A stretch of 64,000 nt of DNA from Octopus sinensis (Eukaryota): contig NW_021833423.1 in the NCBI RefSeq assembly GCF_006345805.1, positions 1 through 64,000 of the forward strand, in the 5' to 3' direction. Positions 10,160 to 57,481 of this stretch are shown here, in pieces (position 1 is the first letter of the stretch; every line of letters begins with the position of its first letter). Both the position numbers and the translations under genes were made by a program. Under the pieces are notes generated by a model. That model made no database searches, was not told where the DNA came from, and was given only the letters and a program-made list of their open reading frames with translations.

Positions 10160-10925
10160 CTTATTCTTTTACTTGTTTACTTGTTTCAGACTGTAACCAT
10201 GGTGGGGTACCGCCTTGGATGATTTTAGTCGAACAAATCTACTTCTGAACATTTTTATGCTTGTTACTTATTGTATCGGTATCTCTTGCCGAACCGCTAT
10301 GCGGGGAGTAAACATACCAGCTTCGGTTGTCAGTCGATGGCAGGAAACAAACACAGACACAAAGACACGCGCAAACACATACACACACATACATATGTAT
10401 ATGTGTGTGTGTATATATATATATATATATATATATATATATATAATACGTATACACACACACACAACACACACACACAAACACACACACACATATATAT
10501 ATATATATATATATATTATATATATATATATATATATATATATATATATATATATATTATATATATATATATATATATATATCACATCTAAACTAACTAT
10601 GACTTAACATTCCTCTCACACCGTCTCCGATGAAGGGATATTATTAATAAATATCCTAGAAACAACTGTAAGACCTTCTATCTATAAATGCTCTAATACT
10701 ATACAGCCTTGGTTTTTTATCTTATTGCGCAAAAAATTCTTATATACTATATATATATACGACGGGCTTCTTGCAGTTTTCGTGTACGAAATCCACTCAC
10801 AAGGCTTTGGTCAGGTTAGCCCGAGGCTTTAGTAGAAGACACTTGCCCAAGGTGCCAAGCAGTAGGACAGAACCCGGAACCATGTTATTGGAAAACAAGC
10901 TTTTAACCACACACCTACGCCTGCG
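10160..10925 (-). mobile_element. SINE family A interrupted by an HHR-bearing insert in its internal (TA)n
   Basis: 3' half 10160-10370, 5' half 10757-10925, insert about 10581-10745. Confidence 0.8.
10623..10674 (+). ncRNA. Minimal type-I hammerhead ribozyme, U4C-mutated copy
   Basis: GUCU-CCGAUGA-AGGGAUAUU..AAUAUCCUA-GAAAC-AACU-GUA-AGAC; flanks resemble those of 57434-57481. Confidence 0.7.
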
Positions 10926-11269
10926 CTTATACTCGTATTTTCCTGAATTAAACAAGCTAACAAATTGTATGGTTCTCTGATATGGTGTTGCTATCGAAAC
11001 AACTTCATAATTCTTTTTCACCTAGTCTGCTAACAAAATTCAAATTTTGGTCCCTAACTCTAGAATGAGATTTTCTGTGAAATTATTTCTGTTCTTGTTT
11101 ATCTCCAACACTCAGTATTTTGTAGCCGTCAACAACTGACGGTAGGAATTTGTTTATTTCCCCCAGCTAAAGGGTAAATTTCAGGTTATTGAGACTTTTT
11201 GTATACATCATTCAGTACATTAGATCATCACCTACAAGAAATGAAATTGGTCCTGAGTTAAACACACAC

Positions 11270-13440
11270 ACCCACACATGTTTGTAAGTATATACCTATA
11301 TTTATATATGTGTGTGTGTGTGTGCGAGCGTGCGTGTGTGTGCATATATATAAGTCGCAATAAGGGTGTACTGGGTACATAGTTGGGGTGAGAAGGGGGA
11401 AAGAGAGGGAAGCGAAGGAAGTATAATATATGTACATAGATACATATGAATATGTGATATATGTGCTATATGCGTATATATGCATATATGATATATATAT
11501 ATATATTATATATATATACTACGTATATGTTTGTGTATATATGTGTATATATATATGTATATTTATAAACGTGTATATATATATATATATATGCGTGTGT
11601 GTGTGTATGTATGTATATGAAGAGAGAGAGTGCAAGAGAAGGAAAGGTAGACAAATACATAGACAGTCTGAATAAGATTAATTGATTTATTGCCAGATGG
11701 TTAAAAAGAAAAACGAACATACCTGATAGACTTACATGTTAGTGCAAATATATTTATAAAATGGAACAAATTTTAAACTACCATAAAATAGCTATGGGAT
11801 GAGGAAAACCTACATTAGTCAAGGATATGACCTTCACTTATCGTGGATAGATAGATAGATAGATAGATAGATATAGATAGATAGATAGATAGATAGATAG
11901 ATAGATAGATAGATAGATAGATAGATAAACGAATAGACAAACAGACGGAGAGATATATAAAGAGAGAGAGAGAGAGAGAGAAACGGGGAGAGAGAATGAG
12001 GGATAGATGGATGGATGGATGGAGGGATGGATGGACGGTCACTTAATAGACAGATACAGACAGACTGACATGCAGACAGACAGATAGATAGATAGATAAA
12101 TAAATAGACAGATATATTGACAGAGAGGGAGAGAGAAAAGGGGGAGAGAGATGAAGAAATGGATGGATGGATGAACGCTCACTTAACAGACAGACACAGA
12201 CAGACAAATAGATAGATAGATAGATAGATAGATAGATAGATAGATAGATAGATAGATACATACATACATACATACATACATACATACATACGTACGTACA
12301 TACATACATACATACATACATGCATACATACATGCATACATATATACATACGTATATACATACATACGTAAAAATGAGAGAGAGAGAGAGAGGGGGGGGA
12401 AGACAGATGCATGGATGGATGGATCGATGGATGGACAGCCACTTAGACAGACAGACAGACAGACGGATGGACGGGTCGATGACTCGATGGATGGATGAAT
12501 GGAGGGATAGACAGACACTTAATAGAGAGATAAGATAGATAGATAGATAGATACATACATACATACATACATACACATACATACATACCTATATACATAC
12601 ATAGACGGATGGATCGATAGATGGATACACAAACACTTAATAGACATAGCGGCAGACAGACTGACAGACATACGGACGGACGGACGGATGGATGGGTGGG
12701 TGGATGGATGGAGAGACAGATACTTCATAGACAGACAGGCAGACAGGCGAACGGACGCACCGGTAGATAGATAGATAGATAGATAGATAGATAGATAGAT
12801 AGATAGATAGATAGACAGATAGACAGATAGATAGATAGATAGATAGATAGATAGATAGATAGATAGATAGATAGATAGATAGATAGATAGATAGATAGAC
12901 AGACATATGCAAAAGTAGGTAGATGTAGGTAGGGATATAAATGAAAGATGAAAATTGTCGAATAAAAACGGTAAACGTGTATCGGTGACAACTATACAAA
13001 GACAGAAAATCAAGAACTATTGGGCTATGATAATGAGTTACAGAACGAGGAGAAGAAAGCGAAAATGAATGAGGAAAAGAAGTTGAAATTGGGAAGTGAA
13101 AGAGGAAATTATAAGCAAACTATCATGGATAGAACCCCAGGAGAATGAATTTGGATGTACGTGTGTGCGTTTGTGTGCGCGTGTGTGTGTATACATGTAT
13201 ATTATATATATATATATGTATGTAACATATATATATATGTATTAGCTATATATGTCTATGTATATATATAATTTACATTACATATGAATACTTATATATG
13301 TGTGTATGTATGTGTGTATGTTATATATATATATATTACATACACACATATATATCCACATATGTATGTATGTATGTATGTAGTATGTATGTATGTATGT
13401 ATGTAGGTATGTAGGTATGTACGTATGTATGTATAAATGT
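11270..13440. repeat. Large (GATA)n/(GACA)n/(GATG)n/(CATA)n/(TA)n simple-repeat field
   Basis: Directly visible. Confidence 0.95.
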
Positions 13441-13617
13441 AGAAAACTATTTTTACTTGATGGCATATTCAGACATTTTTCGTTTAAAATACGTACAATA
13501 AAAATAAAATACGACATAGAAACGAATTTAGATCCGAAAAACGGAGGTTACGGGGTTCAAATTTCTCAGGAGTTCTGAATAACTCTAATTACTTGGAGTA
13601 ACAAAGAAATGACTTAC

Positions 13618-13690
13618 ACGAAAATTTCGAAAAAAAGAAACCGCACATGCGTCTATGAAGTGTAGGGCCTGTGGTTCTAATAAGCGCCAT
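13618..13690 (-). CDS. Candidate first coding exon of a host gene (possible mitochondrial presequence)
   Basis: AAAATGGCG start context, reads MALIRTTGPTLHRRMCGFFFSKFS then GTAAGT donor at 13617-13612; unique sequence; no downstream exon identified. Confidence 0.3.
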
Positions 13691-55644: not shown

Positions 55645-55860
55645 ACGTTTTATACTTGTTTCTGTCATTGGACAGCGGCCATTCTGGGCCACCACCTTGA
55701 TGGATCTCCTTAGTCGAAAAGATCAATCCCAGTACATATTTTAAAAAAAATATATAACTGGCACTTATTATATCGATCACTTTTTCCGAATCGCTGTGTT
55801 ATGAGGACGTAAACAATCCACTACCGGTTGCTAAGCGGGGCAGGGCAGATACAAGCACCA
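55645..55860 (-). mobile_element. SINE family A 3' half, diverged
   Basis: TACTTGTTTCTGTCATTGGACAGCGGCCAT..GGACGTAAACA. Confidence 0.7.
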
Positions 55861-56943
55861 AGACATGCACCCGTGTGCACACAGCACACAGCTATGACTT
55901 CTGCCTTTGACTGCTAATTGCCTCCATGACTGTTTCAGAAATATATATATATATATATATATACAGAGAGAGAGGGAGAGAGAGAGAGAGAGAGAGAGAG
56001 AGAGAGAGAGAGAGACAGACAGACAGACAGACAGACAGACAAGGCCAGCAGTTACCCCAAGAAGGGGGGAAAAATGAAGGGAACTAATTTCGCCCTTTCG
56101 AATAAACACACTACAACTTTTCTTCCCGTGAGGTCCAGCAAAAATCCGTTGGCGTAATGAGTTAACTTACACTTTTATTTGATCACTTTCAAAGTCAACA
56201 ATCACATTTTAAACTATTGCAAAGTCCTTTCTTCTCAATCCGTTGATGTTTTTGTGCTGACCAAATGATCAATTGATTGATTGTAAATTATGTTTACTTT
56301 ACACATGAATAAACAGAATAAACATATATAAAAATTGTTTTGAGCGATTTCATGCCTGCACCGCATATGAACAATATATATTTATATCCGTTAATGTTCA
56401 TAATGTATATATATATATAAAAGAAAACTTGTTCTGTTTCTATTGATTGCGGCCTTGAGTAACTCGTTTGAAAGGCTGGAGTTGCGTTTAGAATGAATTA
56501 ATCTGAACTCATAAAGCATTGATTGTCGCACTGCTTTCCTTTACCAAGGAAGGCACGGCGTTTTCCCCTAGCTGGTGGCTACGGTGAAAGACGAACTTTT
56601 TTAATTGGTCTCCTCTCGTGTCTTTCTATTTCTTTTACTTTTTTTTTTTTCACTTTTCAAATATTTCTATCTTATTATCGATCTTTCTATTGTTGGTGCT
56701 GTTTAGACCGAGGTAATTCCTTATTGAACAGACCTATGACGAAAGGCAGTCAACCGATGGTCCTCTTGTCGTTTTAGACACAGTCGCTCTCGAAATAGAT
56801 CATTCAATATGTTCTTCCTTTTCTAAAGACAGTCGAATAATCACAAAGTGACATACTCGTGGGATAGTCTGATGTCTTTATCTAGAAGTCTTTATATTTG
56901 CATCAGTTTACCAAGATGGCTTTATTACACATATTTAGTAATA

Positions 56944-57118
56944 CTTTCGTTGTTGTCGATGCTACTGACGTAACTGGCGTTGTAATTATTTCAATATATG
57001 GAGCTGTTAAGGCGGCGAGCTGGCAGAAACGTTAGCACGCCGGGCGAAGTGCTTAGCGGTATTTCGTTTGCCGTAACGTTCTGAGTTCAAATTCCGCCTG
57101 GGTCGACTTGCTTTCATT
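56944..57118 (+). repeat. Local duplication of 53068-53245 (unique flank + SINE B head)
   Basis: CTTTCGTTGTTGTCGATGCTACTGACGTAACTGGCGTTGTAATTATTTCAATATATGGAGCTGTTAAGGCGGCGAGCTGG identical at both sites. Confidence 0.9.
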
Positions 57119-57433
57119 CTATATATTTTATCTTTGAAAATAACGACTCGTCCGAAACGTCGTTATCTCTTCTGTTTCTTTGCGGAAAATACATAAACTT
57201 TGTTAGTAATTTTATTTGTTTACTTTTTTTAAATTTACCTCCTGGACTAACTGACCAACGGAGACCAAAGCATGTCGAATGTATATTAGTGTGTGTGTGT
57301 GTGTGTGTGTGTGTGTGTGTGCGTGTGTGTGTATGTGCGTGTGTGTGTGTGCGTGTGTGTGTGTGTTAAATAAAATGAGACAACAAAGCCAAAGCAGTGT
57401 GAAAATTCTAGGACTTTTATAAAGAGAAAGATA

Positions 57434-57481
57434 GTCTTACAGCTGTTTCAGGGATATGAGGGATATCCCTTCATCAGAGAC
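57434..57481 (-). ncRNA. Minimal type-I hammerhead ribozyme, canonical core
   Basis: GUCU-CUGAUGA-AGGGAUAU cccuc AUAUCCCU-GAAAC-AGCU-GUA-AGAC: all core nucleotides intact, 8-bp stem II, palindromic helix III. Confidence 0.9.

What the first reader, a model, noticed from the sequence alone, without database searches (positions are those of the whole stretch)
10581..57481. Several unrelated HHR-element families in one window, mostly at dinucleotide microsatellites
Candidates at 4952, 10623, 16087, 17214, 19478/20028, 22183, 43682 and 57434 have different flanks but share type-I topology, and the better-preserved ones have a palindromic helix III (AGCU, ACGCGU, AAUAUU, AGCGCU). The elements at 10.6, 17.1, 19.2 and 57.4 kb directly abut (TA)n or (TG)n. 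Inference: a genome-wide set of microsatellite-targeted PLE/ribozyme elements with natural core variants that is under-counted by canonical motif searches.
Basis: inference. Interest (0 to 1): 0.7.

Follow-up and report, generated by a model that had tools for sequence, protein, structure and literature searches.

The report
Variant hammerheads on Penelope retroelement ends
Six of the nine flagged motifs are copies of five abundant repeat families that carry hammerhead-ribozyme-shaped RNAs, several with a swapped or altered core, and whose 3' ends mostly sit against dinucleotide repeats; they are likely leftovers of Penelope-type jumping genes, a known kind, and whether the variant RNAs cut is untested.

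Summary
Largely confirmed, largely known. Six of nine motifs belong to five multicopy families with family-fixed cores: canonical (57434), U4C (10623), U3-A8 (19478/20028), G3-C8 (17214; 6,953 exact genome copies) and a one-base insertion (43682). 22183 is a decayed relic, the 16087 motif is an artefact, 4952 is unsupported; 10623 and 57434 are sisters, not unrelated. In an evenly spaced 1.4-Mb genome sample with positions 3 and 8 left free, 20 motifs were found against 0-3 in shuffles; 18 of 20 pair Watson-Crick at 3-8, only 9 read CUGANGA. Family 3' ends abut microsatellites in 127 of 191 junctions (5' ends 22 of 88, background 10%), but an abundant hammerhead-free SINE-like repeat does so too (141 of 168). 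One family traces to a decayed Neptune-type ORF; two-armed insertions and paired 3' ends fit Penelope-type priming. Minimal palindromic hammerheads, U3-A8 and (TA)n bias are published. A natural G3-C8 core was not found in my literature searches, but this scan noted it before on other DNA of this genome. Cleavage and expression are untested.

The parts
10580..10747 (+). Family E element: 5'-truncated 3' end of a Neptune-type PLE, with (TA)n on both sides (10493-10581, 10748-10759)
   Evidence: ORF-bearing relative L155
10623..10674 (+). Family E hammerhead motif, core CCGAUGA (U4C), A.A at the base of helix II; this copy has one change in the ACAGCUGU palindrome
   Evidence: 18 of 20 family-type motifs read CCGATGA; alignment
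15960..16155 (-). Family F 3' tip, truncated before the family's real canonical hammerhead (about 380 nt from the 3' end); the motif flagged at 16087 is not a hammerhead
17075..17276 (-). Family D short element (about 205-215 nt, near-fixed 5' end, two 3' ends 58 nt apart), 3' end at (AT)6 17061-17072
17214..17264 (-). Family D hammerhead motif; family core GUGAACA (G3-C8) plus one extra G, palindrome AAUAUU, site UUU; this copy has A at position 3
   Evidence: 31 of 35 motifs GTGAACA; 6,953 exact matches, control 0
19244..20437 (.). Family A two-armed insertion of a 363-nt ORF-less tandem unit: minus arm 19244-19808, plus arm 19804-20241, extra minus piece 20317-20437; every 3' end runs into (TA)n
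19478..19519 (-). Family A hammerhead motif, core UUGACAA (U3-A8), palindrome ACGCGU, site GUC; matches the family form
   Evidence: 99 of first 100 of 189 pattern matches have T3/A8
20028..20069 (+). Second family A hammerhead motif on the opposite arm, one mismatch in helix II
22184..22225 (+). Decayed canonical hammerhead of a small old family (helix II damaged in this copy); not at a microsatellite
43613..43870 (.). Family C two-armed insertion: minus arm 43613-43740 ending at (TATG)n/(TA)n, decayed plus arm 43782-43870
43680..43727 (-). Family C hammerhead motif, core CUUGAAGA (C3-G8 with one inserted U, or U3.G8 with a mismatch before it), palindrome AGCGCU
   Evidence: 13 of 19 motifs CTTGAAGA
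57367..57817 (.). Family B two-armed insertion: minus arm 57367-57644 ending at (TG)n 57289-57366, plus arm 57684-57817 ending at (TATG)n
57434..57481 (-). Family B hammerhead motif, canonical CUGAUGA, 8-bp helix II, palindrome ACAGCUGU, site GUA; best preserved motif in the window
   Evidence: 19 of 25 motifs CTGATGA
4952..4994 (-). Flagged candidate, rejected: CUGAUGA and a short hairpin but no GAAA, no family

Best explanation
The window holds the ends of six repeat families (A-F) plus one decayed relic; the families carry minimal type-I hammerhead motifs with family-fixed cores and are likely all copied by Penelope-like (PLE) reverse transcriptase/endonuclease proteins that likely nick TA-rich or purine-pyrimidine-alternating tracts. 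Shown: multicopy families, fixed cores, Watson-Crick 3-8 pairing across families, two fixed 3' ends per family, back-to-back arms, 3'-end microsatellite adjacency, and a decayed RT-zinc finger-GIY-YIG ORF upstream of family E. Inferred: the GIY-YIG domain nicks in or at the edge of an existing tract; the RT starts at one of two internal sites on the RNA (giving the two 3' ends), sometimes from both strands (giving two arms), and mostly stops early, so short hammerhead-bearing stubs pile up in tens of thousands. B and E are 3' ends of Neptune-type elements; A is a 363-nt ORF-less retrozyme-like unit borrowing the same machinery; D is a short non-autonomous stub or SINE-like element with no parent found; C and F are PLE-like by shape only. 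The RNAs are predicted to cut slowly, as dimers through the palindromic helix III or with protein help; most genomic copies, including three of the six here, carry private damage and are likely dead.
For: Density: 20 motifs in 1.4 Mb vs 0,0,3,0,1 in five shuffles; 13 of 13 top-scoring and 18 of 20 in all pair Watson-Crick at 3-8 although these positions were free. Fixed cores per family and exact genome counts 6,953 / 189 / 2,348 with reversed-pattern controls 0. Two 3' ends and inverted arms. 3' termini at microsatellites 127 of 191 vs 5' junctions 22 of 88 vs 10% background; 7 of 13 in the evenly spaced sample. Family C's one terminus meets TA, CA and TG tracts (8, 9, 4), which fits targets better than a templated tail. 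L155: family E motif about 1 kb behind a decayed ORF that matches residues 108-802 of an intact 806-aa RT + CxC..CPL..C + GIY-YIG protein, with an inverted 1,120-bp arm at 99.1%. Family D target-site duplications of 9-12 bp in 4 of 11 single-arm copies without a tract vs 3 of 231 by chance. Family A circle folds at z = -7.0, 43% GC. Literature: PMC4209133, PMC8557442, PMC11167929, PMC7229834.
Against: No cleavage or expression data. No ORF was found for A, C, D or F. In single-arm copies with a 3' tract only 18 of 53 rows (one duplicate row) have a tract at the 5' side too (background 11%), fewer than simple insertion inside a tract predicts. A hammerhead-free SINE-like repeat abuts microsatellites more often (141 of 168). 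Family D is only moderately biased (28 of 62) and looks AT-rich- rather than tract-directed. Pfam GIY-YIG scores for the ORF and its relatives are below the curated cut-off. Most junction counts come from best-scoring hits, not random copies. Distances between the two 3' ends (28-137 nt) often exceed the 30-40 bp tail in print.
Confidence: 0.82

Rival explanations
1. The microsatellites are tails made at insertion by RT slippage (or grown afterwards from a short TA seed), not targets.
For: Polarity: 3' ends 66% vs 5' junctions 25%; 8 of 13 single-arm family A copies have no tract at the 5' side; element ends finish in TA-like bases; a tRNA-like SINE shows the same 3' pattern.
Against: No target-site duplication was found beyond the tract in any single-arm copy lacking a 5' tract; 5' junctions are still enriched over background (22 of 88 vs 10%); one terminus meets TA, CA and TG tracts; two-armed copies have tracts on both outer sides.
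Confidence: 0.2
2. The variant cores (G3-C8, U4C, inserted U) are dead founder mutations that hitch-hiked on successful source copies; only the canonical families are ribozymes.
For: Copies within a family are not independent events; PAc hammerhead mutants did not impair insertion in vitro (PMC11167929, parts 1-2 read); U4C lowers activity in vitro (PMC3088659 passage); U17 sites are poor (own knowledge); E has an A.A at the base of helix II.
Against: G3-C8 and U3-A8 each need two matched changes, and 18 of 20 sampled motifs across seven families keep a Watson-Crick 3-8 pair; D subfamilies vary the helix II loop but keep the stem; the C3G/G8C double mutant partly restores cleavage (PMC11167929).
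Confidence: 0.3
3. Chance motifs in AT-rich, microsatellite-dense DNA.
For: True for 4952 and for the 16087 motif; a third of the window is within 150 nt of a tract.
Confidence: 0.02

Closest known systems
[quoted passage not shown]
   Same: Short helix I, long helix II, palindromic helix III, extra base between 9 and 10.1, several families per genome, thousands of solo copies, pairs on opposite strands 100-700 bp apart, U3-A8 variant retrieved only by a changed descriptor.
   Different: The parts read report U3-A8 but not G3-C8, U4C or an inserted U as family-fixed cores, and do not treat microsatellite adjacency; G10.1-C11.1 is not kept in B, E and F.
Neptune-clade PLEs (as defined in Craig et al. 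2021, PMC8557442; passages read)
   Same: C-terminal GIY-YIG with a zinc-finger-like linker, inverted 5'-truncated arm, optional tail, bias to (TA)n.
   Different: Shown only for the B/E clade, by motif and homology, without a tree; tails here are 120-137 nt rather than 30-40 bp.
PAc Poseidon element (Frangieh et al. 2024, PMC11167929; parts 1-2 of 4 read)
   Same: Two RT start sites giving two genomic ends, AT-rich nicking on both strands, hammerhead just upstream of the start sites.
   Different: There G3-C8 is a laboratory double mutant with partial rescue; here it is the natural state of about 7,000 copies.
Metazoan non-LTR retrozymes (Cervera and de la Pena 2020, PMC7229834, passages; Li et al. 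2026, 10.64898/2026.07.22.740005, part 1 of 5 and passages)
   Same: Family A: 363-nt ORF-less tandem unit, one type-I hammerhead per unit, GC under 45%, strongly self-paired.
   Different: U3-A8 core, dispersed one- to three-unit two-armed insertions at (TA)n; circular RNA not shown.
Natural hammerhead core variants (Perreault et al. 2011, PMC3088659; section 8 and passages read)
   Same: U3-A8 in nature, U4C in a viroid, insertions near C3, mismatch at 10.1-11.1.
   Different: Those are rare single representatives; G3-C8 in nature is not in the text read.

Membership tests
Minimal type-I hammerhead ribozyme | Helices I and II around N3-UGA-N-N8-A and GAAA...UH in type-I order | tested here: met
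   Families A-F by scan and alignment; not met for 4952 and the 16087 motif
Minimal type-I hammerhead ribozyme | Watson-Crick pair at positions 3 and 8 | tested here: met
   18 of 20 sampled motifs with both positions free; window copy at 17214 has lost it
Minimal type-I hammerhead ribozyme | Self-complementary 15.1-16.1 segment allowing a dimer | tested here: met
   Family alignments; it was a requirement of the scan, so that scan is no test of it
Minimal type-I hammerhead ribozyme | Invariant CUGA (U4) and no core insertion | tested here: not met
   Family E is U4C (18 of 20), family C has an extra U (13 of 19); variants, activity unknown
Minimal type-I hammerhead ribozyme | Self-cleavage 3' of H17 | not testable with these tools
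   Only contigs were available
Penelope-like element, Neptune type | ORF with RT then zinc-finger linker then C-terminal GIY-YIG | tested here: met
   Family E locus L155 (decayed) and a B/E-like locus L157 match the 806-aa P0007 in that order; Pfam GIY-YIG below cut-off
Penelope-like element, Neptune type | Linked ORF for families A, C, D, F | tested here: inconclusive
   None in the loci held; flanks were mostly 1.5 kb
Penelope-like element, Neptune type | Inverted 5'-truncated arms and two alternative 3' ends (tail) | tested here: met
   A, B, C, D, E; F has inverted arms
Penelope-like element, Neptune type | Placement of the RT in the Neptune clade by phylogeny | not tested
   No named reference set was held; Nematis shares the linker motif
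Non-LTR retrozyme (family A) | 150-450 bp ORF-less tandem unit, type-I hammerhead in consecutive units, low GC, self-paired | tested here: met
   363-nt unit, up to three units in tandem, GC 43%, z -7.0
Non-LTR retrozyme (family A) | Expressed as linear and circular monomer RNA | not testable with these tools
   No RNA holder on record; contigs cannot tell a circle from a tandem

The most novel reading that the evidence does not exclude
About half of the roughly 25,000-60,000 intact hammerhead motifs in this genome are working ribozymes with non-canonical cores, led by a natural G3-C8 swap in some 7,000 short copies of the front end of a PLE transcript; co-resident families keep distinct cores, helix I strands and palindromes so that each dimerises and cuts only its own RNA, and their insertion at alternating tracts explains part of the genome's microsatellite landscape.
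Probability: 0.25. Interest if true: 0.62.

Novelty: new variant of a known kind. Interest (0 to 1): 0.4.

Why it matters
It gives a measured size for the undercount: 11 of 20 sampled motifs are invisible to a CUGANGA search and Rfam called none in six family loci. A natural, high-copy G3-C8 core next to C3-G8 and U3-A8 families is a ready-made test of whether PLE hammerheads are under selection to cut, which is an open question because the one in vitro system found the ribozyme dispensable. Family A offers a young retrozyme-like unit whose insertions look PLE-made. None of this is a new class of element.

Tried and rejected
Rfam on the window: the 150 listed of 427 matches were microsatellite-driven miRNA/snoRNA-type hits, no hammerhead family among them; 0 gathering-level hits in six family loci. 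The repeat finder was swamped by microsatellites but showed the 365-nt inverted arms. Sequencing runs: no RNA holder listed; four runs laid as contigs (three guessed RNA) cover the family A unit and show go-back joints also present in the DNA run, so nothing on expression, cleavage or circles. Tail-with-TSD model: no duplication beyond the tract. Parent of family D: no ORF in four candidate tandem loci, no recurring continuation in 50 matches of one 3' branch or in three loci fetched from it; other branches not searched. The E rows and B long ends were distorted by a reference that included a microsatellite or lacked the long end; I use the recount. The family F regex and the loose core regex on the control SINE are uninformative and not used. 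Word-index protein searches found nothing. Lunse et al. 2017 is not held; I saw only the review's account (PMC6765202 section 11 part 2), so it or unseen supplements may already list G3-C8. Searches for natural G3-C8 in print: (hits: a data-not-shown mutant in PMC3884650, passage read; the PAc mutant; a review seen as listing only). One search listed no paper on these motifs in octopus; PMC6962438 passage gives 235 Rfam hammerheads for giant squid.
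Full report
Setting. The window is G000:C9894:1-64000 in a 2.72-Gb genome of 13,516 contigs, 37% GC and dense in simple repeats. Earlier scan notes call the genome octopus; I did not test that. No PLE reading frame lies in the window.

Observation in the window. A strict type-I scan passes 57434, 19478 and 20028 (3 vs shuffle mean 0.25, 0 of 40 reaching). A relaxed scan (positions 3 and 8 free, U4C or one inserted U allowed, one extra base or mismatch at the base of helix II, self-complementary 15.1-16.1 required) passes 57477, 43720, 19513 and 17257 against 0 in 30 shuffles. 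Each candidate was then searched in the genome. 19.2 kb (A), 57.4 (B), 43.6 (C), 17.1 (D) and 10.6 (E) gave 1,189-2,776 first-look candidates; 16.0 kb (F) 144; 22.1 kb 8; 4.9 kb only itself.

Family cores. In the loci held, A reads TTGACAA in 36 of 37 motifs (U3-A8), B CTGATGA in 19 of 25, E CCGATGA in 18 of 20 (U4C), C CTTGAAGA in 13 of 19, D GTGAACA in 31 of 35 (G3-C8). Exact genome counts: D 6,953; A 189, with 99 of the first 100 T3/A8; B plus E 2,348, the first 100 being 52 CC, 39 CT and 9 other at positions 3-4 by my hand count; reversed-pattern controls were 0. B and E are sisters (76% over 71 nt). The window copies at 10623, 17214 and 20028 carry private changes in the palindrome, position 3 and helix II. 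At 16087 relatives have CAAA where the window has GAAA, and the opposite-strand CTGAAGA arises at a private deletion; the family's real canonical motif lies about 380 nt from its 3' end, beyond this copy's truncation. 22183 aligns with seven diverged relatives that keep helix I and mostly CUGANGA, but its own helix II is damaged.

Genome-wide test. In 140 evenly spaced 10-kb stretches the relaxed scan found 20 motifs at 17 loci vs 0, 0, 3, 0, 1 in shuffles; at score 12 or more, 13 vs 0, 0, 1, 0, 0, all 13 Watson-Crick at 3-8 (8 C-G, 4 G-C, 1 U-A). With the seven lower-scoring ones 18 of 20 are Watson-Crick, one U.G, one G.G (likely noise). By eye they form seven families plus that outlier; 9 of 20 read CUGANGA. 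Scaling by length gives about 37,000 intact motifs (roughly 25,000-60,000; my arithmetic, seven chromosomes sampled). Copies within a family are not independent, so the evidence for covariation is a handful of swaps, not twenty.

Microsatellites. Counting each junction once, family 3' termini abut a tract in 127 of 191 cases (A 39/43, B 14/22, C 21/31, D 28/62, E 21/26, F 4/7), free 5' junctions in 22 of 88, random positions in 10%. In the evenly spaced sample alone it is 7 of 13. Against specificity, a tRNA-like SINE-type repeat (window 9420-9560) abuts tracts in 141 of 168 copies at its 3' side, while another abundant repeat does not (13 of 260). On target versus tail: no duplication lies beyond the tract, 18 of 53 single-arm rows with a 3' tract also have one 5' (background 11%), and family C's end meets TA, CA and TG tracts. 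I read this as nicking in or at the edge of existing tracts with frequent loss of the far side; empty sites were not seen, so it is inference.

Anatomy and mechanism. Each of A-E has two fixed 3' ends (61, 137, 28, 58 and 120 nt apart) and frequent back-to-back arms with both 3' ends outward. Frangieh et al. (PMC11167929, parts 1-2 read) showed for PAc that RT starts at two internal RNA sites after AT-rich nicks on both strands, that the hammerhead cut only with protein, was dispensable for insertion, and that C3G/G8C partly rescues. Locus L155 ties family E to a decayed ORF matching residues 108-802 of an intact RT + zinc-finger + GIY-YIG protein, with a 1,120-bp inverted arm; the linker motif marks Neptune or Nematis and was proposed to drive (TA)n bias (PMC8557442, passages). 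Family A is an ORF-less 363-nt unit found as up to three tandem units with 5' ends all round the unit and folds strongly as a circle (z -7.0, antisense -5.6), like non-LTR retrozymes (PMC7229834). In two-armed copies the two motifs lie on opposite strands, so no window copy has a partner on the same transcript.

Comparison. Minimal palindromic type-I hammerheads in many families, opposite-strand pairs and U3-A8 are in PMC4209133; U3-A8, U4C and insertions near C3 as rare natural variants in PMC3088659; microsatellite bias in PMC8557442. A natural high-copy G3-C8 core did not appear, but Lunse et al. 2017 and supplements were not seen, and this scan has already noted G3-C8 families in this and other genomes.

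Verdict. It is a set of new variants of a known kind, with catalysis unproven.

Noticed in passing
window 9420-9560: Very abundant SINE-like repeat with a tRNA-like head (172 pieces in 1.4 Mb) whose 3' side abuts microsatellites in 141 of 168 copies, more than the hammerhead families.
   Followed up: partly
window 16116-16553 (-): Fragment of a LINE reverse-transcriptase frame (RTE-like by recall; Pfam DUF6451 below cut-off) joined directly to the truncated 5' end of the family F tip.
   Followed up: partly
window 31735-32122, 33151-33564, 51694-52081, 53132-53696: Another abundant repeat (264 pieces in 1.4 Mb) that shows no microsatellite enrichment at either end; useful negative control.
   Followed up: partly
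window 20243-20437: A third family A piece faces the plus arm across one (TA)n tract, forming a long hairpin; either a second insertion in the same tract or an assembly fold-back.
   Followed up: no
L253, L217, L268; L284, L260, L235, L167; L282; L234, L270, L274; L174: Five further hammerhead families in the random sample; U4C recurs in two of them besides family E, always creating a CpG, and one has U3-A8.
   Followed up: no
L134, L135, L140, L143 (family F) and family E: Two families have an A.A apposition at the base of helix II instead of the usual G10.1-C11.1 pair.
   Followed up: no
L011 upstream flank: A GIY-YIG frame of a different (Penelope/Poseidon-like by recall) type lies about 1 kb from a family A insertion; linkage not shown.
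   Followed up: no
run X16 loose end at window 19487: A diverged family A subfamily that keeps U3-A8 while changing position 7 and helix II.
   Followed up: no
window 26941-27480 (-): 179-aa frame resembling a Tc1/mariner transposase fragment by recall; not searched.
   Followed up: no
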